Origin: Candidatus Woesearchaeota archaeon B3_Woes
GTDB taxonomy: Archaea; Nanobdellota; Nanobdellia; Woesearchaeales; B3-WOES
Reading direction: 5' to 3'
DNA length: 64,000 nucleotides
NCBI GenBank assembly: GCA_005222965.1
Contig: NJBG01000001.1
Location: 549,533 to 613,532, forward strand
Under the pieces are notes generated by a model. The model had not been told where the DNA came from and searched no databases. It worked only from the letters and a program-made list of their open reading frames with translations. Position numbers and translations under genes: made by a program. Position 1 is the first letter of the stretch. Each line of letters starts with the position of its first letter. Positions 9,658-50,881 of the stretch are shown here, piece by piece.

Positions 9658-11166
9658 TTAGTGTTGATGAATTGGTTCTATTGATTTAGGAAGCGAACCC
9701 CTAAATGTTGCTAATTCTTGTTCTGATACTTTTGGAGTTTGGATTTCATAAGGTTGTCTGCAATATCTACATCTCATTGTTCCATCATCATAAAATTTAA
9801 GGGGGATGTCTTCATTTACAACTCTTGTAACACAATTATCATTTTGACATAAGAGATACACAAATTTCTCAGATACTTCTCCCTCTCTTATAATATTAAT
9901 TGTTGCTTCTGGTGACATCAAAGCAATTCTTTTCAATTCTCTATTTGTAAGTTCTGGCAAATTTGTTTTTAAGAATGTTTTTTGGTGTTCAGAGAGAGAC
10001 GCAATAACAGAATCATATCTTCTTTTTTCTAATCCCAACTCATCAGCGATTTGTTTACCAACACCTTCAACCAAATGGTCTATAACCACGCCATCTGAAA
10101 TTTTATCAATATATAAGACTCCATTTACTCTTTCTTTCCCTGTTCTTTGCAATCTATTATTCCCATGTTCCAGCGCTGAACTTAAACTTCCACTAAATGT
10201 CGTGTATCCTTCATATTTTAACATTTCATAAAGCAAAGCCTTTCTCATTAAAACACCATTTTCTGCTTGTGGAAAAAATCCTTGCACAGAACTAAAGAAA
10301 ACCCTATAATCAATCTCTGCAATTTCACTATTTACAGGAAGAGGATGCATAACTTTAACATCTAATCCGTCAACTTTACTCAAATCAATTCTGGCATCTC
10401 CCATAAATCTTATTACATCTTCTTGAGTAACTCCTTCCATTCTTTCAAGTTGAGGTCTAGTCATATAATAGAATTCAGATTGTCTCATAACATCTTTTAC
10501 AGTTTGCTCTCTAATTACATTAATTCCTCTTGATTCTAACAAACTTGTTAAATCAGTTGGCATAGCTAAGAAATCATCTGCAGACCATCTTATTGTAATA
10601 TCATCAAAATGAGATAATGCCAAACTTAAAGATCTTATTGTTCTACCATAAGCTAAATCTCCCCCAAGACCCATATTTAAACCATTTAATCGACCATCAT
10701 TATACATATATAATGTAAATATATCAAGCAAAGCCTGTGTTGGATGCTCATTTGTTCCATCTCCTCCATTAATTACAGGGATATCAGCAACATCAGCAGC
10801 CCATTGTAATGAACCATCAAGAGGATGCCTCATAGCAATAACATCAAAATGATTTGCTTCCATCATCTTTATTGTATCCCTTATTGTCTCTTTTTTCGTT
10901 ACAGATGTTCCTTCTGTTCCTACAAAACCATCTCTTTGACCGCCAAGTTCGCGTATAGCTGTGTTGAAACTTGTTCTTGTTCTTGTACTTGGTTCATAAA
11001 ACATAGAAGCCAATGCTCTGTTTGTAAGTTGATGAGAAGAATCATATCTTTTGCCATTTTTCTCTAAATCATACATTCTTTGTGCTTGTTGACATAGATA
11101 AAGAATTTCTTCTTTTGTAAAGTCAGTTATTGAAATTATATCTTTATCTTGAAAGTCTATTTCCAT
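9658..11166 (-). CDS. pyrB: aspartate carbamoyltransferase, catalytic (PyrB) and regulatory (PyrI) chains fused in one ORF
   Basis: PyrB motifs are STRTR, HPTQ, HPLP and RPQLER. The C-terminal part carries the PyrI allosteric domain (ISDGVVIDHL) and a zinc domain (CQNDNC...CRYC). ATG 11166 is preferred over the track TTG at 11190 because GGAGAGGT lies about 8 nt upstream of it. Confidence 0.85.
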   Translation of the reverse strand: MEIDFQDKDIISITDFTKEEILYLCQQAQRMYDLEKNGKRYDSSHQLTNRALASMFYEPSTRTRTSFNTAIRELGGQRDGFVGTEGTSVTKKETIRDTIKMMEANHFDVIAMRHPLDGSLQWAADVADIPVINGGDGTNEHPTQALLDIFTLYMYNDGRLNGLNMGLGGDLAYGRTIRSLSLALSHFDDITIRWSADDFLAMPTDLTSLLESRGINVIREQTVKDVMRQSEFYYMTRPQLERMEGVTQEDVIRFMGDARIDLSKVDGLDVKVMHPLPVNSEIAEIDYRVFFSSVQGFFPQAENGVLMRKALLYEMLKYEGYTTFSGSLSSALEHGNNRLQRTGKERVNGVLYIDKISDGVVIDHLVEGVGKQIADELGLEKRRYDSVIASLSEHQKTFLKTNLPELTNRELKRIALMSPEATINIIREGEVSEKFVYLLCQNDNCVTRVVNEDIPLKFYDDGTMRCRYCRQPYEIQTPKVSEQELATFRGSLPKSIEPIHQH

Positions 11167-11498
11167 TTTGTTTACCTCTCCTTTCTCCAATATTTATCTT
11201 TTCACCTGATGTTGTCAATTAAAACACCCCTTAAAGAATTCTTTATCGCTTTTAATAATTTGGACCATACTAAAAATATAAGAAATGAACTATTCTTTAA
11301 ATATTTTATTGTAATCCAGTAGTTATGTCGACGAGAAATTAAAAAGGTTACCCCTATCAAAAACTTAGAATATACCTATTTTAGAATAGTAATAGAATTT
11401 AAATATTTTTTGGTGATACAAAAGATATATTTGATTATGTTCTATTTACTGTAACAAATCTTTTAAATAGATGAATGATCTTAATATGGGGGAGTTGA

Positions 11499-28732: not shown

Positions 28733-29275
28733 ATGATACAAAAATGTAACACATACAAAGTATTAAAAGTATTTTTAGATGACCCTTTAAAGGGATTTAA
28801 GCTAAGGGAAATCTCAAGAATATTAAAATTAGGGTTGCCTTCAGTTTCAAAATATGTTAAAGATTTAGAAAAAACAAAATTAATTATTTCAAAAGAAAAA
28901 TATGGAAGTAAATTATGGTTTAGTAATAGGGAATCAAGATTATTTAGAATATACAAAAAATTTGAAACAATTAGATCCATAGAAGAAAGCAATTTAATCA
29001 AATATTTAGATAAAGAATTAAACTTTCCAACCATTATATTGTATGGATCACATGCACTAGGCGAAGATAGAAAAGAATCAGATATTGATTTGTTTATAAT
29101 AGCACCAAACAAAAAAAAAATAGAAACCAAACAATTTGAAAAAACACTTAAAAAAAAATTGCATTTATTCATTCACACAGAACACGAAATAAAACAAATG
29201 AAAATAAACAATAAAGAACTGCTTAATAATGTTTTAAATGGAGTTGTCTTAACTGGATACTTAAAGGTGTTATAA
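28733..29275 (+). CDS. minimal nucleotidyltransferase (MNT) with N-terminal wHTH-like region
   Basis: ILYGSHALGEDRKESDIDLFII matches the GSxxxG...SDxD MNT motif. The partner HEPN gene overlaps by 1 nt. Confidence 0.7.
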   Translation: MIQKCNTYKVLKVFLDDPLKGFKLREISRILKLGLPSVSKYVKDLEKTKLIISKEKYGSKLWFSNRESRLFRIYKKFETIRSIEESNLIKYLDKELNFPTIILYGSHALGEDRKESDIDLFIIAPNKKKIETKQFEKTLKKKLHLFIHTEHEIKQMKINNKELLNNVLNGVVLTGYLKVL

Positions 29276-29688
29276 TGAATGACTGGGAAAAATCAATAGA
29301 AGATGGAAAAGTTTTGAAAATATCCCTCAACCAAGAAAGAGCAAAATCATTAATGATATCCTCTTTAAAATTACTAAATATTATTGAAAAAATAAAATTA
29401 GATAAAGAAAATGGTTTTTTTATTTTAACAAATTACTATGATATTATCTTAGAATCACTGCATGCTTTGTTATACAAAAAAGGATATCAATCTTTAGATC
29501 ATTTAAGTATTGGGTATTATATAAAAGATGTACTAGATAACCAGGAATTTTTTAACATATTTGATAAATATAGAAAAACACGAAATAAAATTTTGTATTA
29601 TGGAAGAAACATAGACCCCGAGACAGCACAACAAGGAATAAAAGATCTAAAAAGATTGTATCAATTTGTTAAAAAGTTATTAGAATAA
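29275..29688 (+). CDS. HEPN domain protein (MNT partner)
   Basis: All-helical 137 aa with a TAATG overlap with the MNT gene. KYRKTRNKILYYG lies where the HEPN R-x4-6-H motif is expected, so the motif is degenerate. Confidence 0.6.
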   Translation: MNDWEKSIEDGKVLKISLNQERAKSLMISSLKLLNIIEKIKLDKENGFFILTNYYDIILESLHALLYKKGYQSLDHLSIGYYIKDVLDNQEFFNIFDKYRKTRNKILYYGRNIDPETAQQGIKDLKRLYQFVKKLLE

Positions 29689-29995: not shown

Positions 29996-32900
29996 ATCGA
30001 AATCAAAAAAAGAGGAATATTTACTTTAGTTCTAACTTTTTTATTAATTTTTTGCACAACTTTAACATTAGCAGCAAACGAGTTTGTAATTGACGCCGCA
30101 ACAGGAAACGTGGGAATCGGAACGAGTAGTCCAAGTGAGAAATTGCATATACAAGATGGGAATCTTATAATTAATAATACACCTTCACAACCAGCTATAC
30201 AAATTTATCATTCTGACGCTAATCAATTAAGAGCTGCGATTGATGGGTATGGGAGAGCGGTTTTTGGTTACACTTCTGCTCCAGGTACAGGTCTGGCGAC
30301 AGGTACTACAGTTTATATTCTTGCTGGTGGTGCTTCTACAGTTCCTCTCAAAATAAGTGGCTCTGGAAGCGGTCATACAGGGAATCTATTTCAAGTTTGG
30401 AGAGATGGGACTATCCAAAGATTTGTAATACAAGCAGACGGAAACGTAGGAATTGGAACTAGTAGTCCTGGTCAGAAGTTGGATGTAGTAGGGAATATAC
30501 GTTTAAATAACGGAAATTATCTTCAAATAAATGATAGTTCTGGATATGAGAGGGTAAAGCTTACAAGAGCTGCGTTAGAATTTTATGAATCTGTTGGAAC
30601 TATCTCAAACACTTTTACTAACAGCCACATGAAACTTGGGAATTTAGGGTATGGCTCTCTTGCTACTTTTTTACAAAGTTCAGATAATGTAGTTAGGATT
30701 TGGGCAAATGGAGCGCTTTCTGTTGGGCAGTCTCTTATAAACAATACTTCTCCAGGAACAGGTGACCTTATTGTTGCAGGCAAAGTAGGAATCGGGACAA
30801 GTAGTCCTTCTTATCCCTTAGATGTTAATGGAACTATAAAAACAAATGGTGAAATTAGAATGGCAGAGCCTTCTATAATCAGATTAGGAACTGCAGGTTT
30901 AATCTGGGAGTCCGGGGCGAATTTGATAATACAAGAAGTAGGCAGGAACTTCTTTCTGGGAACAACAACAGAAAACGAACTGCAATTTAAAACAAACAAC
31001 ACTGCACGAATAAGTATTATGTCTGATGGTAAAGTAGGAATCGGAACAACAACCCCCTCACAAAAATTAACAGTCATCGGAACAGTAAACGCAACAAACT
31101 TTGTAGGAGACGGCTCAGGCTTAACAGGAGTAGGAGGCGGAGGAGGCACAGGAATATGGAACCGCTCTGGAACAAACGTATTTCTAAACAATAGTGGCGA
31201 TAAAGTAGGAATCGGGACGAGTAGTCCTTCAAACTCCTTGCAAATAGGAAACGCAATCTTTTTTAACGCAACGTCTGGAAATGTCGGTCTAGGTGAAGCA
31301 CCATTATCAAGCATTCGTATAAATGTACAAGGTAATCGAGTAATGAGATTTGAGAATGCAGCATTAGATGGATTTGAACTTGCTCAAATAAATACAAAAA
31401 CCTGGGGATTTAATCAATTATCTGGTGGACATACTTTTCAAATTCAAGCACATGCAAAGGTAAATAGTGATTTAACTGTTGACACAGACACACTTTTTGT
31501 TGATGCGAGCGAAAATGCAGTAGGAATCGGAACGGACTCTCCAGAAAGTGCATTACATATAATTGATAATCCTTCTGCCCCTGGAACAGCAAAATTAATT
31601 CTTGATAATACAGGAGGTTCCACAAATGATGAAGATAAAATAGAATTTAGGCACGGCGATTATGAACAAGCATATATCAAGACGATTCTAAATGTAGGAT
31701 GGCCTACAGACCTTGCTTTTGGCACAGCTACAGGCATGGGAAGTGGTTTAGATGAACGAATGAGAATTAAAAGCACTGGAAATGTAGGAATCAATACAAC
31801 AACACCATTAACAGCATTAGAAGTAGTAGGAACAATAACAGCAACAAACTTTGTAGGTGACGGCTCTGGCTTAACAGGTGTTGGTGGTAGTGGAGGCACA
31901 GGAATATGGAACCGCTCTGGAACAAACGTATTTCTAAACAATACTGGTGATAATGTAGGAATTGGAACAAGTAGTCCAAATGAATTACTTACAGTCAGTA
32001 ATAGTAATATTCTTCAAGAAGGAGGTGGAGGAATTTATGCTGTTCAAACTGTTGGAGGTTCTGATGTAAGATTTCAATATAACAAAGCAGGAGGAAATGC
32101 TTATTTAAGATTGATGGATGTTTCTAATAATACTGATTTTGAGTTTAATACAAATGGTGATTCTTGGTTGAATGGTGGGAATGTAGGAATTGGAACAGAT
32201 AGTCCAACAGCAGAACTGACAATTAAAAATTCTGCTGATAATACAGATATGTTAAGTTTAGAAAATGCTGCGGGAACAAGAGTGGCTAATTTTGGAACAG
32301 ATGTAAGTGGAGATGGTGTATTAATTGTGAGGGATTCTTCTGGAAATGTTAAACATTATTTAGATGGTGATACAAGCACAGATACTTATTTTAATGCAGG
32401 TAACGTAGGAATTGGGACAAATAGTCCTCTTTCTAAATTACAAATTGGTGATGGTTCTGGTACTGCGTGGACTAGCACTTCTTATCCTGCATTATGGATT
32501 TATGGATATGATAACGAAGCAGCTGTTGAAGGGTTTAGAGTTCAAGATGAAAATGATAATATTGATTTCAGATTAAAAAGTGTAGGGGATGGAGGAACAA
32601 CAGGGGCTACTGCTTATTTTAGGGGAAATGTGGGAATAGGGACGAGTAGTCCTGCAACATTATTACATACAAATTCGTCAGGGCAGAATTATTTGAAAGT
32701 TGAGACTACTGGCGCTTCTTCACAAGCTGCCCTACAATTAAAAACAGGCACCGCAAATGCCGACTGGATTACGTATATTCCCGAAAGTTCTACTGATTTG
32801 AGATTTTATCGTGGTGCAGATAGAATGGTATTGGATGCCTCAGGAAATCTTCAAATAGATGGTGACCTAACAACAAGCAGCCTAGCAAGTTGTGATACAA

Positions 32901-34213
32901 TTGATACAGATTCAAATGGACTTTTATCTTGTGGAACAGATGCATACTCAGCAAACACATGGAGAGGAATTGATGACTCCCCTGTAAATGGTGTTACTAC
33001 TGAATCAATATCCTCCAATTGGGCTTATGACCACGATGCAGCTTCAAGTGCACACCATGTAAAAACAGTAAACACAGACACCCAAGACTTGGGCACAAGC
33101 GGTACTACAATAACTTTAACAAATAGCCCTGCTGTTACAGCACCATATGCAACCTATTCTGGAAATACAAATTCATGTAATAAAGATGCAACATGTGAAA
33201 CAGGAAATATCCTAACAGGGGCAAATGGCTATTTGTACTTGGGTGGAACAGATATGTTCTTGCAGGACAACAGCGGTAACCTAGTCGTAAGTTCCTCTAG
33301 CACCGCCTCTTATAAATATGATTCTACCAACAATGGTGTTGGATTTTTTCAGATTGCTTCAGGAACTGATACAGTACTGAAGATTGACAATGCTGGAAAA
33401 GTCGGCATCGGCACAACAAGCCCAGCATCAAAATTAAGTGTTGGTGGCACTGGTAGTTCTAATTATGCTATATCTGGGCAAGGCGCGTTATATGGCGTTT
33501 TTGGCGCAACAGCAACCAATGGTGGAGCTGGTGTTTATGGTTACGCTAGTTCCGCTGCTACTTCTTATGGTCTCAGGGGCCATGCTACCAATGGTTATGG
33601 TGTATATGCATCTGGCTCTGTGGGTGCAGGATATATGTCAGGCAATCTTTATGTATCTGGGGTTTGCAGTGGTGGTGATTCTTGCAACCAAGATATTGCA
33701 GAAAAATGGGCGTCAGAAAAAGCATTAAAACATATCCATTGTGGTGAAGATAGATTTGATTATACAAATGAAATTATTCCAGATGACATGAAAGAGGATA
33801 ACCATCAATACAAATGCATATTAGACTCTTCCTTTGAACTAGAATTTGAACAAGGAGATGTTATTTGTTTTGATAAAGCTATTGATTCTGTTACTGTTAT
33901 AAGATATTGTGATAAATCCTATGACAAAACAGCACTATCAACACTAAGTTATCATGCAACAATGACTATTGGAGCAGATTATTATCCTTATCCGATTGCT
34001 TTAACAGGTAATATTCCAGTAAAGGTTATTTGTGACAACCCTATAGAAGTAGGTGACCCTTTAGTAACATCAAACAAACAAGGTTATGCAATGAAATTGG
34101 ATATTTCAGATATCACAACATTTAAAGAATTTCAGGAAAGAAATAATGCAATCTTTGCAAAAGCCCTGGAACCTTGTGATTCCGGAAAAAAACTAATTAG
34201 GGCTTGGATTTAA
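29996..34213 (+). CDS. giant secreted repeat protein (13x GNVGIGTxSP motif, tail-fibre-like) with distinct C-terminal domain
   Basis: The track ORF starts at GTG 30110, but the frame is open from 29996. The extension encodes a textbook signal peptide, IEIKKRGIFTLVLTFLLIFCTTLTLAANEF. The motif G(N/K)VGIGT(S/T)SPxxxLx(V/I) recurs 13 times. The C-terminal ~200 aa (CNQDIAEKW...) are non-repetitive. Confidence 0.85.
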   Translation: MEIKKRGIFTLVLTFLLIFCTTLTLAANEFVIDAATGNVGIGTSSPSEKLHIQDGNLIINNTPSQPAIQIYHSDANQLRAAIDGYGRAVFGYTSAPGTGLATGTTVYILAGGASTVPLKISGSGSGHTGNLFQVWRDGTIQRFVIQADGNVGIGTSSPGQKLDVVGNIRLNNGNYLQINDSSGYERVKLTRAALEFYESVGTISNTFTNSHMKLGNLGYGSLATFLQSSDNVVRIWANGALSVGQSLINNTSPGTGDLIVAGKVGIGTSSPSYPLDVNGTIKTNGEIRMAEPSIIRLGTAGLIWESGANLIIQEVGRNFFLGTTTENELQFKTNNTARISIMSDGKVGIGTTTPSQKLTVIGTVNATNFVGDGSGLTGVGGGGGTGIWNRSGTNVFLNNSGDKVGIGTSSPSNSLQIGNAIFFNATSGNVGLGEAPLSSIRINVQGNRVMRFENAALDGFELAQINTKTWGFNQLSGGHTFQIQAHAKVNSDLTVDTDTLFVDASENAVGIGTDSPESALHIIDNPSAPGTAKLILDNTGGSTNDEDKIEFRHGDYEQAYIKTILNVGWPTDLAFGTATGMGSGLDERMRIKSTGNVGINTTTPLTALEVVGTITATNFVGDGSGLTGVGGSGGTGIWNRSGTNVFLNNTGDNVGIGTSSPNELLTVSNSNILQEGGGGIYAVQTVGGSDVRFQYNKAGGNAYLRLMDVSNNTDFEFNTNGDSWLNGGNVGIGTDSPTAELTIKNSADNTDMLSLENAAGTRVANFGTDVSGDGVLIVRDSSGNVKHYLDGDTSTDTYFNAGNVGIGTNSPLSKLQIGDGSGTAWTSTSYPALWIYGYDNEAAVEGFRVQDENDNIDFRLKSVGDGGTTGATAYFRGNVGIGTSSPATLLHTNSSGQNYLKVETTGASSQAALQLKTGTANADWITYIPESSTDLRFYRGADRMVLDASGNLQIDGDLTTSSLASCDTIDTDSNGLLSCGTDAYSANTWRGIDDSPVNGVTTESISSNWAYDHDAASSAHHVKTVNTDTQDLGTSGTTITLTNSPAVTAPYATYSGNTNSCNKDATCETGNILTGANGYLYLGGTDMFLQDNSGNLVVSSSSTASYKYDSTNNGVGFFQIASGTDTVLKIDNAGKVGIGTTSPASKLSVGGTGSSNYAISGQGALYGVFGATATNGGAGVYGYASSAATSYGLRGHATNGYGVYASGSVGAGYMSGNLYVSGVCSGGDSCNQDIAEKWASEKALKHIHCGEDRFDYTNEIIPDDMKEDNHQYKCILDSSFELEFEQGDVICFDKAIDSVTVIRYCDKSYDKTALSTLSYHATMTIGADYYPYPIALTGNIPVKVICDNPIEVGDPLVTSNKQGYAMKLDISDITTFKEFQERNNAIFAKALEPCDSGKKLIRAWI
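31031..31230 (+). repeat. intragenic duplication, copy 1
   Basis: Near-identical to 31781-31980, an offset of exactly 750 nt. This includes a 52-nt exact match, ggaggcacaggaatatggaaccgctctggaacaaacgtatttctaaacaata. Confidence 0.85.
31781..31980 (+). repeat. intragenic duplication, copy 2
   Basis: See copy 1. The protein segments are VGDGSGLTGVGG(G/S)GGTGIWNRSGTNVFLNN(S/T)GD(K/N)VGIGTSSP. Confidence 0.85.
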
Positions 34214-34227
34214 AAACATCTTTGAAA

Positions 34228-34444
34228 CAAGAACCCTACCAACAAGGCAACTCATACATGTGGTGTGATATATTTAATCAAACTTAAACTAAACAACATA
34301 CCTTTAATTTAATTAACAAAGCCCCTGAAACCCCCCAATCCACCCATCTCATCCCCAACAACCAAAAATTCTTAGTAAAATCAGGTTGTTAAATTACTAG
34401 TAATATTAGATTGTTTTTTTAGTAGAATTATGTTGATAAAACAA
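34228..34444 (+). repeat. cassette-boundary repeat, copy A (long form, left arm + triple-iteron core)
   Basis: It starts 15 nt after the giant-protein stop. It shares the ~100-bp left arm (CAACTCATACATGTGGTGTGATAT...CCTGAAACCCCCCAATCC) with copy C and the ~110-bp core with copies B and C. TAGTA sub-repeats start at 34373, 34398 and 34420. Confidence 0.85.
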
Positions 34445-34599
34445 TTTATAATAGAAAACACAAATAATTGAGCAAAATAGTTGTGTTTTCCAGATATCAT
34501 AGCGGATTTATTGATAAATTATTTTAGTCTGCTATTATACATTTAAAAAACCAATAATTTTAAATATACTAAAACTATCTAAAGTTATAACAGAACAAG

Positions 34600-34812
34600 A
34601 TGAAATTTAGAATAATTATGGAACAAGACGAAGATGGTATTTTTGTAGTTGAATGTCCATCATTACCTGGATGTGTTTCTCAGGGAAAATCAAGAGCAGA
34701 AGCCGTAAAAAACATCAAAGATGCTATGAAAGGTTATGTCCAAAGCTTAAAAAAACATAATGAAGCAATACCCCCTTCTATAAGGGAAGATACAATTGAA
34801 ATAAATGCCTAA
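34600..34812 (+). CDS. hicB: HicB-family antitoxin (UPF0150)
   Basis: EQDEDGIFVVECPSLPGCVSQGKSRAEAVKNIKDAMKGYVQSL is the typical HicB N-terminal fold signature. There is an 8-nt overlap with hicA. Confidence 0.8.
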   Translation: MKFRIIMEQDEDGIFVVECPSLPGCVSQGKSRAEAVKNIKDAMKGYVQSLKKHNEAIPPSIREDTIEINA

Positions 34813-35032
34813 ACTACCTGTTATTTCTGGATTGAAAGCTGTAAAAGCGCTTTCTAAATTAGGATATAGGATTGACCACCAAACAGGTTCTCATTTAATT
34901 CTTAGACACGAAAAAGAACCTCATAGAAGACTAACTATTCCCAATCACAAAGAATTATCCAAAGGAACGTTAAGAGCAATAATAAGACAAGCAGGTTTAA
35001 CAAGAGAAGAATTTTTAAGATTAGTAAGATAA
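34805..35032 (+). CDS. hicA: HicA-family mRNA interferase toxin
   Basis: LKAVKALSKLGYRIDHQTGSHLILRHEKEPHRRLTIPNHKELSKGTLRAIIRQAGL matches the HicA/YcfA pattern, including the GSH motif. Confidence 0.8.
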   Translation: MPKLPVISGLKAVKALSKLGYRIDHQTGSHLILRHEKEPHRRLTIPNHKELSKGTLRAIIRQAGLTREEFLRLVR

Positions 35033-35044
35033 ATTCTATCTACT

Positions 35045-35155
35045 CAATTCACCCATCTCAGCCAATCAACATACAACTTCTTAGTAAAATCAGGTTGCCA
35101 AATTACTAGTAATATTAGATTGTTTTTTTAGTAGAATTATGTTGCTAAAACAAAA
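35045..35155 (+). repeat. cassette-boundary repeat, copy B (core only)
   Basis: It starts 13 nt after the hicA-1 stop. The core is TTCACCCATCTCAGCCAATCAACATACAACTTCTTAGTAAAATCAGGTTGCCAAATTACTAGTAATATTAGATTGTTTTTTTAGTAGAATTATGTTGCTAAAACAA. TAGTA sub-repeats start at 35082, 35107 and 35129. Confidence 0.85.
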
Positions 35156-35240
35156 ACATATAAATATAATGTGCTGAAGATTAGACCAAGATTTCTTTTT
35201 AAAAAGAGAAACATAAGAAATGTCAAATATTATTCTATGC

Positions 35241-35299: not shown

Positions 35300-35503
35300 A
35301 TGACAGGCTTTAATATGATTATAGAAAAAGGAGAAGATGGATATTTGATATCTGAAGTAGTTGAGCTTCCAGGATGTCATACACAAGCAAAAAATATGAA
35401 TGAACTTCTTGAAAGAACAAAAGAAGCTATTTCTCTTTATTTAACAGAACAGGGAAGCGAATTTAAAGATAAGTTTATTGGTGTACAAAAATTAGAGGTT
35501 TAG
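35300..35503 (+). CDS. hicB: HicB-family antitoxin (second copy)
   Basis: IIEKGEDGYLISEVVELPGCHTQAKNMNELLERTKEAISLYL. The stop abuts the hicA-2 ATG. Confidence 0.8.
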   Translation: MTGFNMIIEKGEDGYLISEVVELPGCHTQAKNMNELLERTKEAISLYLTEQGSEFKDKFIGVQKLEV

Positions 35504-35856: not shown

Positions 35857-36108
35857 ATGGAAATAACAAAACTGAGCACAAAAGGACAAATTGTAATACC
35901 TGAATCTATGAGAAAAGGTTTAGAAGTTGGTAGCGCATTTAAAGTAATTAAAAAAGGAGAACTTATAATTTTAAAAGAAGTAGAAGGACTCACTAAGGAA
36001 GAAATGGAAGAAATGAAAGAACTTGATAAGATTTGGAAAGGTATAGATGATGGTAAGGGAGTAACCATGAATAAAAAAGAGTTTCTTAAGGAACTAGAAT
36101 CTTGGTAA
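35857..36108 (+). CDS. AbrB/SpoVT-type antitoxin
   Basis: MEITKLSTKGQIVIPESMRKGLEV is a swapped-hairpin AbrB/MazE signature. The toxin gene follows after 4 nt. Confidence 0.75.
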   Translation: MEITKLSTKGQIVIPESMRKGLEVGSAFKVIKKGELIILKEVEGLTKEEMEEMKELDKIWKGIDDGKGVTMNKKEFLKELESW

Positions 36109-36112
36109 GAGA

Positions 36113-36370
36113 ATGTCTGACGAAATAAAGAAAATAACTCGTTCTCCAAAATTTATCAAACAGACCAAACAACTAGATGAATTCAGTCTCAAAAAGCTAG
36201 GGAAACAAATATTAAAAATCTTAGAAAATCCCAATGTTGGAAAACCTTTGAAATATAAAAGAGGTGAACGGTCACTCTATATTAAACCATTCAGATTAGT
36301 TTATGCTGTAAGAGAAGATGAGGTTATTTTATTAAAATTTGACCATAGAAAAAGAGTTTATAGAGATTAA
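36113..36370 (+). CDS. relE: RelE/ParE-family toxin
   Basis: LENPNVGKPLKYKRGERSLYIKPFRLVYAVREDEVILLKFDHRKRVY matches the RelE/StbE pattern. Confidence 0.75.
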   Translation: MSDEIKKITRSPKFIKQTKQLDEFSLKKLGKQILKILENPNVGKPLKYKRGERSLYIKPFRLVYAVREDEVILLKFDHRKRVYRD

Positions 36371-36424
36371 GTAATGTGAATAAATTATGTATGAATAATA
36401 TATACTCCAAAACCAACTTATCAA

Positions 36425-36654
36425 ACAACAACTCTGCTCGCAAGACAACTCATACACGTGGTGTGATATGCTTAATCAAATTTAAGATAAACAACACACC
36501 TTTTAGTTTTTTAGTTTAATTAACAAAGGTCCTGAAACCCCCCAATCCACCCATCTCATCCAATCAACATACAAATTCTTAGTAAAATAATGTTGCTAAA
36601 CTACTAGTAATATTTTGTTGTTTTTTTAGTAGAATTATGTTGCTAAAACAAAAA
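36425..36654 (+). repeat. cassette-boundary repeat, copy C (long form)
   Basis: It starts ~55 nt after the relE stop and ends 34 nt before the ATG of the Zn-ribbon/nuclease gene. It has both left arm and core. TAGTA sub-repeats start at 36580, 36605 and 36627, the same 25/22-bp spacing as in A and B. Confidence 0.85.
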
Positions 36655-36687
36655 GATTTAAATAACAAAAAAAAACAAATTTAATAT

Positions 36688-37788
36688 ATGCAACCAGAAA
36701 TTAACAAAATAAATTGTCCTAATTGTTCCTCAAAGAATCTTAAAAAATACGGTGTTCAAAAAAATAAAGCACAAAACTTACAAAAGTACCAGTGTAAAAT
36801 TTGTAAAAAAATATTTACATTAAAAGACCAGTCCAAAAACAAAACATATCCAATAAACATCATCCTTAATGCATTATCTTATTATAATTTAGGATACTCT
36901 CAAAACGATATTAATAAAATTCTTTCTAAGAAGTTTAAGCTAAAGCCCTCTCAAAAAACAATCTCTAACTGGATAAATGAATACAAAAACATCACAATAT
37001 TTAACAAACTAAGAAAAGAAGCATCAAAACTTTACACAAAAGAAGAAATAATAGAAAAACACACATTCTTACACAACAATTTACCTTATAAATTCCAAAT
37101 TCACAAAGCAAAACTAGATTTGTTATTCCAAAACAAATACAATAATAAATTCTCAAATCACTCAAAATTCCAAAAACCAATAAAACAATACCTGGAAAAA
37201 ATTCCAACAAAAAAATTTCCTCACCACATATTCAAAGAACACAAAGAAAAGAAAAGTTCAAATACATCAATTGCTCAAATTGATAATATTAAAAATAGAT
37301 CAGAACAAAGAGCATCACAATTAAAATTCTCACATCTTAAAATAACACACATCTCAAAAAATAACCTAGCCAACAAATTAGCATCATTGGCTCTCAATCT
37401 GGCAAAAAACAATAAACAAAGACATGAAGCAGTACAAACCTTCATGCTAATCAACGATTCAACAACAATAGCAGCAGAAGTCCCTATCTACTTAACAAAT
37501 GATGACATAACTTATTTTCTAAGCAGAAAATTCACTCTGCCATTAGAAAACCAACAAACCCCAATCACAGGGCACATAGACATATTACAAATTAGAAACA
37601 ATCTTATCCATATTCTAGATTATAAGCCAGACGCAGCTAAAACAAAACCCATAGAACAACTGACAATATATGCCTTAGCATTAGCATCAAAACTAAAATT
37701 AGATCTAAAATCATTTAAATGTGCGTGGTTTGATGAAAAGAACTACTATGAATTCTTTCCTTTGCGTGCTGTTTATGAAAAGCCATAA
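36688..37788 (+). CDS. Zn-ribbon + HTH (InsA/IS1595-like N-terminus) fused to RecB-family PD-(D/E)XK nuclease domain
   Basis: The N-terminus CPNCSSKNLKKYG...YQCKICKKIF gives CxxC-x19-CxxC, then SQKTISNWINEY. The C-terminus reads ITGHIDILQI (motif I D), LIHILDYKPDAAK (motif II DxK) and EQLTIYALAL (QxxxY). Confidence 0.6.
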   Translation: MQPEINKINCPNCSSKNLKKYGVQKNKAQNLQKYQCKICKKIFTLKDQSKNKTYPINIILNALSYYNLGYSQNDINKILSKKFKLKPSQKTISNWINEYKNITIFNKLRKEASKLYTKEEIIEKHTFLHNNLPYKFQIHKAKLDLLFQNKYNNKFSNHSKFQKPIKQYLEKIPTKKFPHHIFKEHKEKKSSNTSIAQIDNIKNRSEQRASQLKFSHLKITHISKNNLANKLASLALNLAKNNKQRHEAVQTFMLINDSTTIAAEVPIYLTNDDITYFLSRKFTLPLENQQTPITGHIDILQIRNNLIHILDYKPDAAKTKPIEQLTIYALALASKLKLDLKSFKCAWFDEKNYYEFFPLRAVYEKP

Positions 37789-37800
37789 AAAACCAAAAAG

Positions 37801-37832
37801 TTTATATACTATAGCCACTATAGTACCTATAG
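37801..37832 (+). promoter_or_regulatory. TATA box (TTTATATA) followed by three CTATAG palindromes at 9-bp spacing, abutting a leaderless ATG
   Basis: CTATAG occurs at 37809-14, 37818-23 and 37827-32. The ATG is at 37834. Confidence 0.55.
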
Positions 37833-37833
37833 A

Positions 37834-38025
37834 ATGCCATCAACAATTCAATTAAGCAAGTGTACAAAAGAATTAGTTAGTTCCTTCGGTACTAAAGAAG
37901 ATACTTATGAGGATATAATTAAAAGGATATACAAACTTGCAGTTAAAGAACAGTTAAGAGAATTTCTCATGTCTTCTAAAAATACAGTAACACTGGAAGA
38001 AGCAAGAAAAATTATTAACAAGTAA
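37834..38025 (+). CDS. putative antitoxin (small, partner of RelE/ParE-like gene)
   Basis: 63 aa. The stop is 1 nt before the next ATG. An N-terminal strand plus helices gives an RHH-like impression only. Confidence 0.5.
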   Translation: MPSTIQLSKCTKELVSSFGTKEDTYEDIIKRIYKLAVKEQLREFLMSSKNTVTLEEARKIINK

Positions 38026-38026
38026 G

Positions 38027-38371
38027 ATGGCTAAGATAGAAATTCTAAAATCTCTTGTGCTTGAAATAAAGAAGAAATTCAGTAAAACAGAAGCAAATAA
38101 AATTCTTGATATTATCCATAGTTTAAAAAATAACCCTAGAAAAGGAAAACTTTTAGGAAATGTTGGTGGACTTGTAATTAAAGAACTAAAATACAAAAAT
38201 TTTCGTTTCTATTTTATCACAGATGGGTTTAAATTAAAATATTTTGATGAAGAAAACCTTGTAGATTTGCTTTTAAGGTTTGTTAGGATGTCTGATAAAA
38301 AACATCAACAAGAAACAATAGATAAAATCAAACATATTCTTAAAACAATAGGTACTGAAGAATTTAAATAG
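38027..38371 (+). CDS. RelE/ParE-like toxin
   Basis: IIHSLKNNPRKGKLLGNVGGLVIKELKYKNFRFYFITDG resembles the RelE/ParE core pattern. Confidence 0.5.
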   Translation: MAKIEILKSLVLEIKKKFSKTEANKILDIIHSLKNNPRKGKLLGNVGGLVIKELKYKNFRFYFITDGFKLKYFDEENLVDLLLRFVRMSDKKHQQETIDKIKHILKTIGTEEFK

Positions 38372-48632: not shown

Positions 48633-49760
48633 TTATTTCTTTTCAATTCCCAAAATACTCAAATAAAACACATTAAAAATTATTTGTATACCTATTATTA
48701 AAATAGTTGATGCTAATATAACCCTTCCTGGCTGGAAAAACCCACTAAAACCAGTCAATAACCATCTTATAAAAATATTCCCACTAATCAATAAACCTAT
48801 TAAAAATATTAAACTACCAAAAAAAAGACCCTTTTCTAATGTTAAATATTGAATAAACCTTTCAATCAAAAGAGATTTTTCTTTTAAAACTGCAAATAAA
48901 TATATTTTAGCAAATAATGTCAAAAAAATTAATTGAAAACCCAAAATAGCCAATAAACTGCACAAGATTGCAGTATGGATACCTAATCTAAAATTATTGA
49001 TCATTATATCCCCTGTACTTAAAAAAAGAACCCCTAAAATCCCAACAAAAAATATTAAAAAACCAGGTATAAAAAATAAATAAGAAGGGGTATGTAATAA
49101 CATGAATCTTAGATGCTTCCACCCATCATTAAAACTACTTAATTTACTTTTTCCTATTCGTTTATAATAATTTATAAGGACCTCTTTAACCTTAATTTTT
49201 TGTTTTACTGCCTTCATCAACATTTCAGAAGCAAATTCCATTCCACCAGTATTTAGTTCAAGCTTTTCAAAAGCTGTTTTTTTAATAATCCTAAAACCAG
49301 AGTGAACATCCTTAATTTTTGCTTTAAAAAATAATCTAAAGATAAAAGAAAGCAAAGGATTACCAATTGTTCTATGTAACCAAGGCATGGCTTTTTTATG
49401 AAAATAAGTTCTTTTTCCAAGAACTAAATCATATTTTTTAGAATATTGGATTAACTTAGGCAATTCATACAAATCATAAGTATTATCACTATCAACCATT
49501 ATTATTCTATTACCTTTTGTTACAGAAAATCCTTTTAGATATGCATTTCCATAACCTTGTTTTGGTTCAACAACAACTTTAGCGCCAAGTTTTTTAGCAA
49601 TACTAGCAGAATTATCTTTACAACCATTATCAACAACTATTATTTCATAACTAACCTTTAATTGAGAAAAAACCTTTTTTGCTTTTTCTATACAAATTCC
49701 AATAGTTTTTTCTTCATTCAAACAAGGCAAAACCAAGCTAAATTCAATATCAACACCCAT
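48633..49760 (-). CDS. GT2 polyprenol-phosphate glycosyltransferase (DPM1/GtrB-like) with C-terminal TM helices
   Basis: SLVLPCLNEEKTIG, VVDNGCKDNS and MVDSDNTYD (DxD), followed by 4 C-terminal TM segments. Confidence 0.8.
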   Translation of the reverse strand: MGVDIEFSLVLPCLNEEKTIGICIEKAKKVFSQLKVSYEIIVVDNGCKDNSASIAKKLGAKVVVEPKQGYGNAYLKGFSVTKGNRIIMVDSDNTYDLYELPKLIQYSKKYDLVLGKRTYFHKKAMPWLHRTIGNPLLSFIFRLFFKAKIKDVHSGFRIIKKTAFEKLELNTGGMEFASEMLMKAVKQKIKVKEVLINYYKRIGKSKLSSFNDGWKHLRFMLLHTPSYLFFIPGFLIFFVGILGVLFLSTGDIMINNFRLGIHTAILCSLLAILGFQLIFLTLFAKIYLFAVLKEKSLLIERFIQYLTLEKGLFFGSLIFLIGLLISGNIFIRWLLTGFSGFFQPGRVILASTILIIGIQIIFNVFYLSILGIEKK

Positions 49761-49825
49761 AAAAAGAATATTATCAAATTATTATTTAAATTTATGGGAT
49801 AATCACATTTACCAGAAGGATAAAT

Positions 49826-50704
49826 TTAAAGATTCAATTCATTTAATATCTTTCCTACACATGTTTTAACATCATTATGTTCTGTATCTACAATAACATC
49901 TGCTTTCGGCTCTTCAAATAAGTCAGATACTCCTGTAAAATTTTTAATTTCCCCTTTACGCGCCTTTTTATACATTCCTTTTTTGTCTCTTTTTTCGCAT
50001 GTTTCTAAACTACATTTAACATACACTAAACTAATATTTTCTATTATCCCCTTAACCATACTTCTTAACTCATTAGTGGGAGATATAAAGGAAGAGACCA
50101 CAAGATTGTCGTTTTCATTAAAAAGCCTTGCAACATGCGCAATCCTTCTTAGATTTTCTCGTCTATCTTTGTATGAAAATCCTAAATCTTCATTAAGCTT
50201 TCCACGCACATCATCACCATCAAGGTGAACAGTAGCATAACCTCTGTTGTATAACTCCTCTTTCAATTTTTTTGCGAGAGTGGTCTTACCAGAACAAGGT
50301 AACCCTGTAAACCATATTGTTGTCCTTAACGATTTGATATAATCTGTAACTTCCTTTGGAACACGATTTTCTTTTTTGTTCCTCACGTTTGTTCCTGATA
50401 TCTCAAGTATGGTGCTGGGGGGATCGATTTTGTTTATATCATACCCAACATTTCTTCCAATGTTTATGCTTTCTATATCAGGAATAGATATGACTTTTAC
50501 TTTGTCTCCGTAAACCCTTCTTATTATCTCAATGCGCTGTTTTACTGTATATGGATTTTTTTGCGAAAGTTCTGTTTGTCGAATTGCAATACATATATCC
50601 TTACCATCTGAGATGGCTTTGTCTATTAGGTATTTATGCCCATTATGAAAAGGCTGCCACCTCCCTATGAATAAAGCATATCTTTTATTATCTTTATATT
50701 TCAT
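49826..50704 (-). CDS. cysC: fusion of HxGH/ISxT nucleotidyltransferase domain with adenylylsulfate (APS) kinase
   Basis: The N-terminal ~125 aa read ALFIGRWQPFHNGH (HxGH) ... ISGTNVR (ISxTxxR). The C-terminal part reads WFTGLPCSGKTTLA (P-loop), LDGDDVR, FSYKDRRENLRRIAHVARLF and SFISP, all APS kinase motifs. Confidence 0.8.
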   Translation of the reverse strand: MKYKDNKRYALFIGRWQPFHNGHKYLIDKAISDGKDICIAIRQTELSQKNPYTVKQRIEIIRRVYGDKVKVISIPDIESINIGRNVGYDINKIDPPSTILEISGTNVRNKKENRVPKEVTDYIKSLRTTIWFTGLPCSGKTTLAKKLKEELYNRGYATVHLDGDDVRGKLNEDLGFSYKDRRENLRRIAHVARLFNENDNLVVSSFISPTNELRSMVKGIIENISLVYVKCSLETCEKRDKKGMYKKARKGEIKNFTGVSDLFEEPKADVIVDTEHNDVKTCVGKILNELNL

Positions 50705-50709
50705 TCTAA

Positions 50710-50805
50710 TTATTCTCTTATCTTTTTTATAAATGCTTTTGTATCAAACTTCTTTGATTCCATCAAACAAGGCAAAACCAAACTAAATTCAATATCCCCC
50801 CTCAT
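50710..50805 (-). pseudogene. chimeric gene remnant: GT2 5' end joined to GT4 3' end
   Basis: The 31-codon ORF is MRGDIEFSLVLPCLMESKKFDTKAFIKKIRE. Residues 1-14 match the GT2 start (MGVDIEFSLVLPCLNEE, 49760). Residues 17-31 match the GT4 C-terminus (KKFDTKIFIKKIKE, 41515-41560). The upstream 40 nt also duplicate the GT2 promoter region (49761-49800). Confidence 0.7.
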
Positions 50806-50881
50806 AAAAAGAACATTATAAAACCATTATTTAAATCTATGTAATCCCTATTATGAACAACAAAACATTTAAATATAATCC

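What the first reader, a model, noticed from the sequence alone, without database searches (positions are those of the whole stretch)
36688..37788. Zn-ribbon/HTH protein fused to a RecB-like PD-(D/E)XK nuclease directly downstream of repeat copy C
The 366-aa ORF begins with a CxxC-x19-CxxC zinc ribbon (CPNCSSKN...CKICKKIF), followed by an HTH-like SQKTISNWINEY. This resembles the DNA-binding N-termini of IS1 InsA and IS1595-type transposases. A long Lys/Asn-rich linker follows.

The C-terminus shows the three RecB-family nuclease motifs in the correct order: GHIDIL (motif I Asp), ILDYKPD (motif II D-x-K) and QLTIYALAL (QxxxY). I do not recognise this architecture as any described transposase, Cas4 or TA component. 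Its start lies 34 nt from the iteron-bearing repeat.

It is therefore the obvious candidate for the protein that recognises or cuts the cassette-boundary elements. It could be an endonuclease-type recombinase/transposase, a homing nuclease, or a DNA-targeting defence effector.
Basis: partly seen in the sequence, partly recalled or inferred. Interest (0 to 1): 0.7.

Follow-up and report, generated by a model that had tools for sequence, protein, structure and literature searches.

The report
Iteron-reading nuclease beside toxin-antitoxin cassettes
This archaeal gene encodes an uncharacterised nuclease whose DNA-binding head appears to read a short repeated motif found in its own promoter and at the head of neighbouring toxin-antitoxin cassettes, so it may drive a new, integrase-free way of collecting gene cassettes.

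Summary
The ORF (36688-37788, 366 aa) is real. It combines an IS1-type Zn-ribbon and HTH, a structured middle domain and a RecB-type PD-(D/E)XK nuclease whose catalytic residues are conserved. It belongs to a large unnamed family, mostly in DPANN archaea, that is absent from viral contigs and defence libraries.

The upstream repeat is a conserved ~100-240-nt element (E). It holds three ~18-nt iterons at 25/22-nt spacing, an inverted half-site forming a palindrome, and an archaeal BRE/TATA. All 93 E copies found are co-oriented with the gene. Thirty-seven sit just upstream of a homolog; the others head toxin-antitoxin cassettes in arrays of up to seven.

The iteron type co-varies with residues 87-88 at the cap of the HTH recognition helix (31 of 32 loci), and a natural N-terminal domain swap carries a third iteron type. 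Close relatives have 0, 1 or 3 cassettes at this site. Copies A and C in the window are reciprocal mosaics, with a crossover mapped to 18 nt around the palindrome.

E is not attC-like, and no integrase lies within about 8 kb on either side.

Best reading (confidence 0.45): an autoregulated, iteron-guided nuclease that triggers recombination at E and so drives cassette gain and loss. DNA binding is well supported. Cleavage and its role are inferred.

The parts
36688..37788 (+). ORF of 366 aa: IS1-type Zn-ribbon + HTH, middle domain, RecB-type PD-(D/E)XK nuclease
36715..36804 (+). Zn ribbon, C10-x2-C13-x22-C36-x2-C39
   Evidence: Cys conserved in 34 homologs; NF050000 at 28.7 bits, cutoff 28
36853..36984 (+). 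Three-helix HTH (helices 56-67, 72-83, 89-99); the third is the predicted recognition helix
   Evidence: model; IS1 and IS6 transposase N-terminal matches
36946..36951 (+). Codons 87-88 (Pro-Ser), N-cap of the recognition helix; these co-vary with the iteron head type
   Evidence: Ser88 with AGTAA 20/20; Pro88 with AGCCA 11/12. L093 has 'AT' with a third iteron type
37003..37233 (+). Structured middle domain (beta-hairpin 122-139 plus helices); no family match
37249..37299 (+). Disordered, length-variable linker (residues 188-204)
   Evidence: pLDDT <50; large indels here in the homolog alignment
37300..37785 (+). RecB-type nuclease domain. Catalytic residues: E264 (37477-37479), D298 (37579-37581), D311 (37618-37620), K313 (37624-37626), Q324 (37657-37659), Y328 (37669-37671)
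36423..36664 (+). Element copy C (gene-proximal). C-rich left part; iterons at 36580, 36605 and 36627; near-palindrome ACTACTAGTAAT at 36600-36611
36657..36664 (+). TATA box TTTAAATA with an A-rich BRE just upstream; the ATG lies 31 nt downstream, so the mRNA is probably leaderless
   Evidence: Read from the sequence; same layout in L001, L009, L016, L042, L048 and L086
34225..34457 (+). Element copy A, heading the HicB/HicA-1 cassette. Iterons at 34373, 34398 and 34420; palindrome ATTACTAGTAAT at 34393-34404
35045..35166 (+). Element copy B (lacks the far-left part), heading HicB/HicA-2 plus AbrB/ParE. Iterons at 35082, 35107 and 35129
34390..34407 (+). Crossover interval in copy A. The partner interval in copy C is 36597-36614
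   Evidence: Reciprocal mosaic, 10/10 and 4/4 informative sites
34600..35032 (+). Cassette 1: HicB (70 aa) and HicA (75 aa)
   Evidence: the [E-HicBA] unit recurs in L030 and L142
35300..35731 (+). Cassette 2: HicB-like (67 aa; Pfam match below the curated cutoff) and HicA (75 aa)
35857..36370 (+). Cassette 3: AbrB/MazE-like antitoxin (Pfam match below the curated cutoff) and ParE/RelE toxin
   Evidence: 93.5% identical copy in L091 between two E copies
37834..38371 (+). Downstream small gene pair: 63 aa with a weak DUF7557 match, plus 114 aa. It is preceded by three CTATAG palindromes at 37806-37832
   Evidence: conserved at ~94% identity in L093

Best explanation
The gene encodes an active, sequence-specific nuclease of an uncharacterised archaeal family.

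Its IS1-type Zn-ribbon/HTH head reads ~18-nt iterons (TAGTAAnAT-n3-GTTGCT). Three direct copies sit at about two-turn spacing, with an inverted half-site that makes the palindrome ATTACTAGTAAT. These iterons lie in a conserved element (E) that also carries the gene's own BRE/TATA promoter, so the protein almost certainly autoregulates.

Further E copies, always in the same orientation, head neighbouring toxin-antitoxin cassettes. The nuclease gene itself behaves as one E-headed unit within these arrays.

Proposed mechanism: several protomers assemble on E. The tethered RecB-type domains nick or cut at or near E, in the way FokI couples a specific binding domain to a cleavage domain. Host recombination then repairs the break using other E copies or incoming E-bearing DNA. 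The result is gain, loss and shuffling of cassettes. This would be a nuclease-driven, integrase-free cassette platform.

Shown here:
- the domain architecture and conserved catalytic residues;
- the anatomy and fixed orientation of E;
- co-variation between the DNA-binding domain and the iterons;
- cassette turnover among close relatives;
- a crossover inside E.

Inferred:
- that the protein cleaves DNA at all;
- where it cuts;
- that its cuts, rather than ordinary homologous recombination, drive cassette movement.
For: Architecture and active site.

E is the gene's own upstream element:
- 37 non-redundant loci have E within 140 nt of the homolog's start, mostly 30-57 nt.
- This includes loci with no cassettes, L001 and L086.
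- All 93 E hits are on the gene's strand and none is inverted.
- Iterons change in concert within an element, with compensatory change of the palindrome: ATTACTAGTAAT to ATGGCTAGCCAT.

Binding:
- Residue 88 is Ser in 20/20 AGTAA-type loci and Pro in 11/12 AGCCA-type loci. My arithmetic from these counts gives Fisher p of about 1e-7, uncorrected for relatedness.
- The two types interleave when sequences are ordered by nuclease-domain similarity.
- L093 is ~87-94% identical to the window from codon ~90 onward. It has a ~45%-identical N-terminal domain, a different helix cap (KATLPTISNW) and a third iteron type (TTTAAAwAT..GTTAC x4).
- Periodic upstream repeats are family-wide: chains of >=3 in 22/112 loci against 5/560 shuffles.

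Cassette platform:
- L114 has about seven E copies 0.8-1.2 kb apart that bound HicBA, PIN, reversed HicAB, HEPN/MNT and RelE cassettes and end at the gene.
- Loci with >=90%-identical genes hold 0 (L086), 1 (L091) or 3 (window) cassettes at the same site.
- The [E-HicBA1] unit recurs on the other side of the gene in L030 and L142.
- Copies A and C are reciprocal mosaics of an L086-type and a B-type element. The switch lies in an 18-nt interval holding the palindrome.
- Cassettes belong to many unrelated TA families. This points to a generic mobility role rather than a specific partnership.

The N-terminal domain is homologous to the DNA-binding domain of a transposase family.
Against: - No cleavage or binding assay exists; everything about catalysis is inferred.
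- PD-(D/E)XK enzymes hydrolyse DNA and cannot join strands, so host recombination must do the joining. Homologous recombination alone, between ~100-240-nt elements, could explain the crossover. Its position at the palindrome could be chance: the interval is 18 of about 130 nt.
- Arrays are mosaics of iteron types. In L114, L119, L012 and L030 the resident protein is the AGCCA type but many cassette elements are the AGTAA type. The resident protein may therefore not act on all elements.
- E and the N-terminal coding region are physically linked, so block inheritance contributes to the co-variation.
- E carries a promoter, and the next gene is usually co-oriented with it (24 against 7), which also fits a purely regulatory role.
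- Intact iterons next to the gene mean cleavage must be tightly controlled.
- TA enrichment near homologs over more distant flanks is only modest.
- Distant homologs in Thermoplasmata and in bacterial-labelled contigs show no detectable iterons.
Confidence: 0.45

Rival explanations
1. Regulator plus effector. The protein is a transposase-derived transcription factor that binds E to control its own promoter and the E-driven TA cassettes. The nuclease domain serves another purpose, such as DNA degradation during stress or abortive infection. E copies spread passively with duplicated promoters and ordinary homologous recombination.
For: - The iterons end about 12 nt upstream of a canonical BRE/TATA, and the ATG is 31 nt further on.
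- Most cassette-heading E copies are co-oriented with the next gene (24 against 7).
- The window's HicB antitoxins are only 67-70 aa and lack a DNA-binding domain, so they could need a regulator acting in trans.
- In L030, E drives an MNT-HEPN-nuclease operon.
Against: - The reversed HicAB cassette in L114 is still bounded by co-oriented E copies.
- Many cassette E copies have an iteron type that does not match the resident protein, which is odd for a regulon.
- Strict conservation of the catalytic residues demands a nuclease function that this model leaves unexplained.
- The reciprocal crossover inside E and the 0/1/3 cassette polymorphism show that E is a recombination junction, whatever else it does.
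- No PADLOC match.
Confidence: 0.22
2. Selfish IS-like element. [E + nuclease gene] is itself a transposable unit whose 'transposase' uses a PD-(D/E)XK domain in place of DDE. The TA cassettes are passengers or addiction modules left behind after older copies decayed.
For: - The N-terminal ~130 residues match IS1 and IS6 transposase DNA-binding regions.
- Several MAGs carry 2-3 diverged copies.
- Gene fragments are frequent: N-terminal pieces in L012, L016, L078 and L167, and 3' pieces in L078, L020, L055, L067, L033 and L143.
- The distribution is patchy across DPANN phyla, Thermoplasmata and some bacterial-labelled contigs.
- Both ends of the unit are discrete junctions: inside E, and right after codon Y363.
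- Many copies lie at contig ends.
Against: - No inverted copy of E was found anywhere (0 of 93), and no terminal inverted repeats or short target duplications.
- Copies within a genome are diverged paralogs, not near-identical IS copies.
- The chromosomal position is conserved: the gene lies directly after a giant surface-protein gene in the window, L001, L012, L086 and L090.
- In L001 the next gene starts 2 nt after the stop codon.
- There is no remnant of a deleted gene in the window's A and B units.
- A hydrolytic nuclease alone cannot transpose.
Confidence: 0.13
3. Stand-alone defence or toxin nuclease. The protein is a DNA-targeting effector, restriction-like or abortive-infection, that simply lives in a defence/TA island. 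Its N-terminal domain only autoregulates it.
For: - It lies among TA and defence-type genes such as AbiE, MNT/HEPN, PIN and STAND/AAA ATPases.
- The distribution is patchy and accessory.
- The nuclease is intact.
Against: - No match in PADLOC.
- No conserved partner, methylase or immunity gene.
- This model does not explain why the protein's own binding sites are copied, in a fixed orientation, to the heads of many unrelated cassettes, nor the crossover inside E.
- The family is absent from viral contigs. That is neutral.
Confidence: 0.1

Closest known systems
IS1-family transposase InsAB' and its InsA repressor
   Same: - N-terminal CxxC...CxxC Zn ribbon followed by an HTH (NF033558 positions 1-109, NF050000).
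- The binding sites overlap the element's own promoter, which gives autoregulation. That IS1 works this way is from my own knowledge.
   Different: - No DDE catalytic domain: NF033558 scores 30.9 bits against a cutoff of 100 and covers only the N-terminal half.
- A RecB-type nuclease takes its place.
- The binding sites are three direct iterons on one side only, not terminal inverted repeats.
RecB / AddA / AdnA nuclease domains and Cas4 (Pfam PF12705)
   Same: - The fold, and the motif order E...GxxD...DxK...QxxxY.
   Different: - No helicase and no Cas4-type four-cysteine Fe-S cluster.
- No cas genes nearby.
- Fused to a sequence-specific DNA-binding head.
Integrons, including the archaeal integrons and CALINs of Ghaly et al. 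2022 (PMC9668308)
   Same: - Arrays of ~1-kb cassettes, rich in toxin-antitoxin pairs.
- Same-orientation boundary sites.
- A dedicated gene at one end.
- Cassette content differs between close relatives.
   Different: - No tyrosine recombinase in the window within about 8 kb on either side.
- The boundary element is not a hairpin-forming attC: fold z-scores run from -1.0 to +0.85. It is an iteron array that carries a promoter and lies 5' of each cassette.
- The associated enzyme is a hydrolytic nuclease.
FokI-type modular nucleases (type IIS restriction enzymes)
   Same: - A specific DNA-recognition module tethered by a linker to a PD-(D/E)XK cleavage domain.
- Multiple sites would allow the cleavage domains to pair. 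This comparison is from my own knowledge and is a working analogy only.
   Different: - No methyltransferase partner.
- The recognition sites lie intact beside the gene.
- The nuclease is the RecB subtype.
- Cleavage has not been shown.
Iteron-regulated plasmid Rep genes
   Same: - Direct repeats at helical-turn spacing immediately upstream of, and presumably bound by, the product of the adjacent gene.
- Iterons and protein co-evolve.
   Different: - Chromosomal context.
- No Rep, primase or helicase domain.
- Many element copies head unrelated cassettes.
PD-(D/E)XK proteins in DNA mobility: TnsA of Tn7, Rpn/YhgA recombination-promoting nucleases, free-standing homing endonucleases
   Same: - A restriction-like nuclease fold used to cut DNA and so promote movement or recombination of genes. 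This is from my own knowledge.
   Different: - TnsA needs the DDE protein TnsB.
- Rpn proteins lack the Zn-ribbon/HTH and cognate iterons.
- Homing endonuclease genes normally interrupt their own target site, whereas here the sites are intact and multiplied.

Membership tests
PD-(D/E)XK nuclease, RecB-like (PF12705) | Profile match above the curated threshold | tested here: met
   PF12705 at 23.4 bits, cutoff 22, residues 179-337. The margin is narrow, but many homologs carry the same precomputed hit.
PD-(D/E)XK nuclease, RecB-like (PF12705) | Catalytic motifs (E; GxxD; DxK; QxxxY) in order and conserved | tested here: met
   E264, D311, K313, Q324 and Y328 are invariant and D298 is >=90% conserved in 34 sequences.
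PD-(D/E)XK nuclease, RecB-like (PF12705) | Restriction-endonuclease-like fold | tested here: met
   Model pLDDT 83.9. The top PDB matches are AddA, RecB, AdnA and Cas4, with probability up to 0.99 and E 4e-3.
PD-(D/E)XK nuclease, RecB-like (PF12705) | Metal-dependent nuclease activity | not testable with these tools
   Needs biochemistry.
Cas4 | Four conserved cysteines for an Fe-S cluster in the nuclease domain | tested here: not met
   The nuclease domain (205-366) has one Cys, C345, in the window protein. It is not among the conserved columns, and several homologs have Ala there.
Cas4 | Located in a CRISPR-cas locus | tested here: not met
   No cas genes or CRISPR arrays in the window or in the homolog loci inspected.
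IS1-family transposase | N-terminal Zn ribbon + HTH DNA-binding region | tested here: met
   NF050000 at 28.7 bits, cutoff 28. NF033558 matches residues 10-130 to profile positions 1-109, E 2.5e-7.
IS1-family transposase | DDE catalytic domain | tested here: not met
   NF033558 totals 30.9 bits against a cutoff of 100, with nothing beyond profile position 109. The C-terminus is a RecB-type nuclease.
IS1-family transposase | Terminal inverted repeats and target-site duplications flanking the gene | tested here: not met
   0 of 93 element copies are inverted. There are no convincing inverted repeats around the gene. In L001 the next gene starts 2 nt after the stop codon.
Integron | IntI tyrosine recombinase next to the array | tested here: not met
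   No such domain among the window ORFs I scanned between 21 and 45 kb. None is in the top families of 150 neighbouring ORFs of homologs. This was not an exhaustive scan of whole genomes.
Integron | attC sites: imperfect inverted repeats that fold as single-strand hairpins | tested here: not met
   ssDNA folds of A, B, C and the L001 element on both strands give z from -0.98 to +0.85 against shuffles. The element is built from direct repeats.
Integron | Array of cassettes separated by same-orientation boundary sites, variable between relatives | tested here: met
   L114, L143, L012 and the window; 0, 1 or 3 cassettes in close relatives. This is an analogy of layout only.
Homing endonuclease | The gene's insertion disrupts its own recognition site; one site per genome | tested here: not met
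   If the iterons are the recognition sites, they are intact beside the gene and multiplied in arrays.
Type II toxin-antitoxin component | Conserved two-gene pairing with a cognate partner | tested here: not met
   Neighbours differ from locus to locus. In L001 the gene sits between a surface protein and an aldo-keto reductase.
Known anti-phage defence systems (PADLOC) | Match to a defence-system protein model | tested here: not met
   0 families at E <= 1.

The most novel reading that the evidence does not exclude
This would be the first gene-cassette capture platform that runs on a sequence-guided nuclease instead of a recombinase. An iteron-reading RecB-type nuclease would make breaks at promoter-bearing boundary elements, and host repair would then build and reshuffle arrays of toxin-antitoxin and defence cassettes in DPANN archaea. 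The protein would also carry a simple, naturally swappable recognition code: a two-residue cap on the HTH helix matched to the iteron head.
Probability: 0.35. Interest if true: 0.9.

Novelty: new variant of a known kind. Interest (0 to 1): 0.78.

Why it matters
DPANN archaea have tiny genomes yet carry many toxin-antitoxin and defence genes, and how they acquire them is unclear. Most reported archaeal 'integrons' lack an integrase (PMC9668308).

A widespread protein family (344 clusters at 50% identity with E <= 1e-30) that reads the boundary elements of cassette arrays offers a concrete, testable candidate for a different acquisition mechanism.

Even if the recombination role fails, the family gives a clean natural example of protein-DNA co-evolution, with discrete specificity switches. 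It also shows a transposase DNA-binding head re-used with a different catalytic domain. The modular 'reader plus nuclease' design could interest enzyme engineers.

Tried and rejected
1. Units A and B as decayed copies of the nuclease gene. Sensitive alignment of the spacers after A and B against the gene gave only short AT-rich chance matches. Rejected.
2. E as an attC site. No hairpin signal on either strand. Rejected.
3. E as a structured RNA or a known RNA family. No Rfam hits and no tRNAs in the window.
4. A virus-borne or plasmid-like gene. No relative in 2.9 million viral contigs, only weak PHROG hits, and the window and long contigs are chromosomal.
5. A known defence protein. No PADLOC hit.
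6. A solved-structure relative by sequence. None, with either the single sequence or the profile.
7. Extra copies of the gene in the window. None.
8. Strong TA enrichment near homologs. The Pfam tally of 150 near ORFs against 150 far ORFs shows only a modest excess, and the size distributions are identical, so I do not lean on it.
9. The internal repeats in L087 turned out to be coding repeats of paralogous proteins, not boundary elements.
10. An iteron-like sequence in the gene's 3' end (AACTACTATGAAT) is not conserved at the DNA level in relatives and is treated as chance.
11. Five literature searches found no description of the architecture or of iteron-bounded TA arrays. Two earlier queries failed on syntax.
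Full report
OBSERVATION

The ORF at 36688-37788 (+) exists as described and encodes 366 aa.

N-terminal region:
- The four cysteines (C10, C13, C36, C39; the spacing is 22 residues, not 19) match NCBIfam's IS1/IS1595 N-terminal zinc-binding domain at threshold (NF050000, 28.7 bits, cutoff 28).
- Residues 10-130 align with the first 109 positions of the IS1 transposase model (E 2.5e-7). That model's DDE half is not matched (30.9 bits against a cutoff of 100).

Structure and nuclease domain:
- An AlphaFold model built on 34 homologs is confident (pLDDT 83.9, pTM 0.78). It shows a Zn ribbon, a three-helix HTH whose third helix is SQKTISNWINEY (89-99), a structured middle domain, a short disordered linker (188-204) and a C-terminal alpha/beta domain.
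- The C-terminal domain passes Pfam PF12705 (23.4 bits, cutoff 22).
- Its best PDB fold matches are the nuclease domains of AddA, RecB and AdnA, and Cas4.
- It keeps E264, D311, K313, Q324 and Y328 invariant, and D298 nearly so, across homologs.
- It lacks Cas4's cysteine cluster.

THE FAMILY

- A search of 5.8 billion proteins returned 1754 hits. The top 120 are full-length at 54-90% identity and are named only 'hypothetical', 'transposase-like' or 'PD-(D/E)XK nuclease family protein', from Nanoarchaeota/Woesearchaeota MAGs.
- A profile search of 1.84 billion cluster representatives gave 344 clusters at E <= 1e-30 and 1361 at E <= 1e-10. Many are truncated pieces.
- In species-representative genomes the family occurs in Woesearchaeota/Nanoarchaeota, Aenigmatarchaeota, Iainarchaeota, Altarchaeum and Thermoplasmata.
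- At ~35% identity it also occurs on a few long bacterial-labelled contigs.
- Several MAGs hold two or three diverged copies, and many copies sit at contig ends.
- There is no relative in 2.9 million viral contigs, no PADLOC match and no solved relative by sequence.
- Five literature searches found no description.
- The window itself is archaeal chromosome: Hef-type helicase-ERCC4, PyrB-PyrI, RNase J, GatAB, GyrA and AspRS.

THE UPSTREAM ELEMENT (E)

The window has three copies: A (34225-34457), B (35045-35166, lacking the far-left part) and C (36423-36664).

Each copy contains:
- a C-rich left part;
- three ~18-nt iterons (TAGTAAAATnAnGTTGCT, TAGTAATATTnnnTTGTT, TAGTAGAATTATGTTGCT) at 25- and 22-nt spacing;
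- an inverted half-site that forms the palindrome ATTACTAGTAAT with iteron 2.

In copy C, a BRE/TATA (TTTAAATA, 36657-36664) lies 12 nt after iteron 3 and 31 nt before the ATG. The exact iteron pattern occurs nine times in the 64 kb, all in A, B and C.

An nhmmer profile iterated over the window plus about 160 fetched loci found 93 copies in 59 loci:
- All 93 are on the gene's strand.
- Thirty-seven non-redundant copies lie just upstream of a homolog's start, mostly 30-57 nt away. These include loci with no cassettes at all (L001, L086).
- The remaining copies lie upstream or downstream of the gene at a median spacing of 1.1 kb.

E is thus first of all the gene's own promoter-proximal element.

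E is not attC-like. Single-strand folds of four copies on both strands are no better than shuffles (z from -0.98 to +0.85).

THE PROTEIN READS THE ITERONS (co-variation)

- Iterons evolve in concert within an element. Where TAGTAA becomes (C/T)AGCCA, it does so in all units, and the palindrome changes compensatorily to ATGGCTAGCCAT. The distal half-sites also differ by lineage.
- Among 112 unique homologs with at least 150 nt of upstream sequence, 32 could be typed. Residue 88 is Ser in 20/20 AGTAA-type loci and Pro in 11/12 AGCCA-type loci. Residue 87 is Pro in the first type and Val/Ile/Leu in the second.
- These two residues cap the predicted recognition helix. Nearly all other top-associated columns lie in residues 1-106.
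- The two types interleave repeatedly when sequences are ordered by nuclease-domain similarity.
- L093 is a natural domain swap. From codon ~90 through the downstream cassette it is 87-94% identical to the window at DNA level. Its N-terminal 90 residues are only ~45% identical, the cap reads KATLPTISNW, and the upstream iterons are a third type (TTTAAAwAT..GTTAC, four copies, same period).
- A sequence-agnostic detector finds periodic upstream repeats family-wide: chains of >=3 in 22/112 loci against 5/560 shuffles. Different lineages have different motifs. The most distant homologs show none.

Caveat: E and the N-terminal coding region are adjacent, so block inheritance contributes to the association. 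Even so, noncoding iterons persisting at this level of divergence, with discrete concerted switches, is best explained by recognition.

CASSETTES

In the window the order is:
1. surface-protein gene (ends 34213);
2. A, then HicB/HicA;
3. B, then HicB/HicA, then AbrB/ParE;
4. C, then the nuclease;
5. a small gene pair (63 aa with a weak DUF7557 match, plus 114 aa).

L114 shows the pattern at scale. About seven E copies bound HicBA, PIN, a reversed HicAB, HEPN/MNT, an antitoxin/RelE pair and a small ORF, and the array ends at E-nuclease. The reversed cassette shows that E marks boundaries and is not merely each cassette's promoter. Most next genes are nonetheless co-oriented with E (24 against 7).

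Close relatives differ exactly here:
- L086 (gene 90% identical) has surface protein - E - gene.
- L091 (91%) has E - AbrB/ParE - E - gene, with the cassette 93.5% identical to the window's.
- The window has three cassettes.
- The [E-HicBA1] unit recurs, with E ~105 nt upstream, on the other side of the gene in L030 and L142.

In a four-way alignment (L086, A, C, B):
- All 10 reciprocal-type informative sites left of the palindrome read 'A = L086-type, C = B-type'.
- All 4 such sites to the right read the opposite.
- The switch lies in an 18-nt interval containing the palindrome: A 34390-34407 and C 36597-36614.

This is the signature of a single reciprocal crossover between a resident E and an incoming E, that is, a Campbell-type insertion of the cassette block.

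The gene's 3' end is a second junction:
- Homology among close relatives stops right after ...GCTGTTTAT (Y363).
- In other lineages, same-orientation fragments of the last 25-80 codons, all ending at the stop codon, separate successive TA cassettes. L078 has five or six of these; L020, L055, L067, L033 and L143 also have them.

INTERPRETATION

Well supported:
- a conserved, probably active RecB-type nuclease fused to an IS1-type DNA-binding head;
- the head's cognate iterons lie in the gene's own promoter region (so autoregulation is likely) and at the heads of TA cassettes;
- E is a recombination junction at which cassettes come and go.

Inferred: the nuclease cuts at or near E and thereby drives this recombination. 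I favour this reading (0.45) for four reasons:
- The cassettes belong to many unrelated families.
- The DNA-binding head comes from a transposase lineage.
- The catalytic residues are strictly kept.
- The gene itself behaves as an E-headed unit with discrete ends.

Against it:
- Homologous recombination alone could use E.
- Arrays mix iteron types that the resident protein may not read.
- E's promoter fits a regulatory role.
- No biochemistry exists.

The rivals are a regulator-plus-effector (0.22), an IS-like selfish unit (0.13) and a stand-alone defence or toxin nuclease (0.10).

COMPARISON AND NOVELTY

- The C-terminal domain is a member of the RecB-like PD-(D/E)XK group. It is not Cas4.
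- The N-terminal region is homologous to IS1-family DNA-binding regions, but the protein is not an IS1 transposase: it has no DDE domain and no terminal inverted repeats.
- The array layout resembles an integron but fails two of its defining features. The boundary sites are not attC hairpins, and no integrase was found nearby.
- I file it as a new variant of known kinds (modular reader-nuclease; cassette array).
- There is a substantial chance (about 0.35) that it is a categorically new, nuclease-driven cassette platform.

Noticed in passing
L078:3100-9100; also L020, L055, L067, L033, L143: In Aenigmatarchaeota-type loci, same-strand fragments of the nuclease gene's last 25-80 codons separate successive TA cassettes (VapBC, Doc, MNT/HEPN, PIN, AbiE). 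Every fragment ends at the stop codon. N-terminal fragments also occur (L012 2473-2586, L016 4270-5058, L078 191-523, L167 4-183).
   Followed up: partly
window 37806-37832: Three CTATAG palindromes at 9-10-nt spacing lie between the nuclease stop codon and the DUF7557-like gene pair. They are probably that pair's own operator. They are conserved in L093.
   Followed up: no
window 34600-34812 and 35300-35503: Both HicB antitoxins are only 67-70 aa. They contain the HicB-like fold alone, with no C-terminal DNA-binding domain, so they may depend on another regulator.
   Followed up: no
window 30110-34213; L001:5616-7787; L012:122-1474; L086:2-1864; L090:1136-4879: A giant surface protein lies directly upstream of the nuclease locus in several genomes. 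It has GNVGIGT(S/T)SP repeats in the window and L012, and Laminin_G_3 domains in L001. This suggests a conserved chromosomal position that serves as a cassette hot spot.
   Followed up: partly
L114:396-5968; L143; L012; L119; L030: Arrays mix AGTAA-type and AGCCA-type elements. Several loci whose resident protein is the Pro88 (AGCCA) type carry mostly AGTAA-type cassette elements. This could mean a second paralog acts on them, or that the cassettes were imported.
   Followed up: partly
L093:550-960: L093 is a natural chimera. The N-terminal DNA-binding domain and the iterons are swapped, while the rest of the gene and the downstream cassette are ~87-94% identical to the window. The breakpoint is near codon 90.
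   Followed up: yes
window 28733-29688: Another small pair lies just upstream of the surface-protein gene: an MNT-type nucleotidyltransferase (180 aa) and a 137-aa partner. It has no element copy.
   Followed up: no
window 49708-49796 and 50753-50841: An 89-nt direct repeat (84% identical) covers the start regions of two adjacent minus-strand genes (48633-49760 and 49826-50704). It looks like a duplicated 5' region.
   Followed up: no
L080, L081, L069 (bacterial-labelled contigs up to 1 Mb): Full-length homologs at ~35% identity occur on long contigs labelled Acidobacteriota, Xanthobacteraceae and 'bacterium', with no detectable upstream iterons. Other bacterial labels on short contigs (Omnitrophota, Saccharibacteria) may be binning errors.
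   Followed up: partly
window 2634-4835 and 9658-11190: A Hef-type helicase-ERCC4 nuclease and a fused PyrB-PyrI aspartate carbamoyltransferase are present. They were useful as markers that the window is archaeal chromosome.
   Followed up: no
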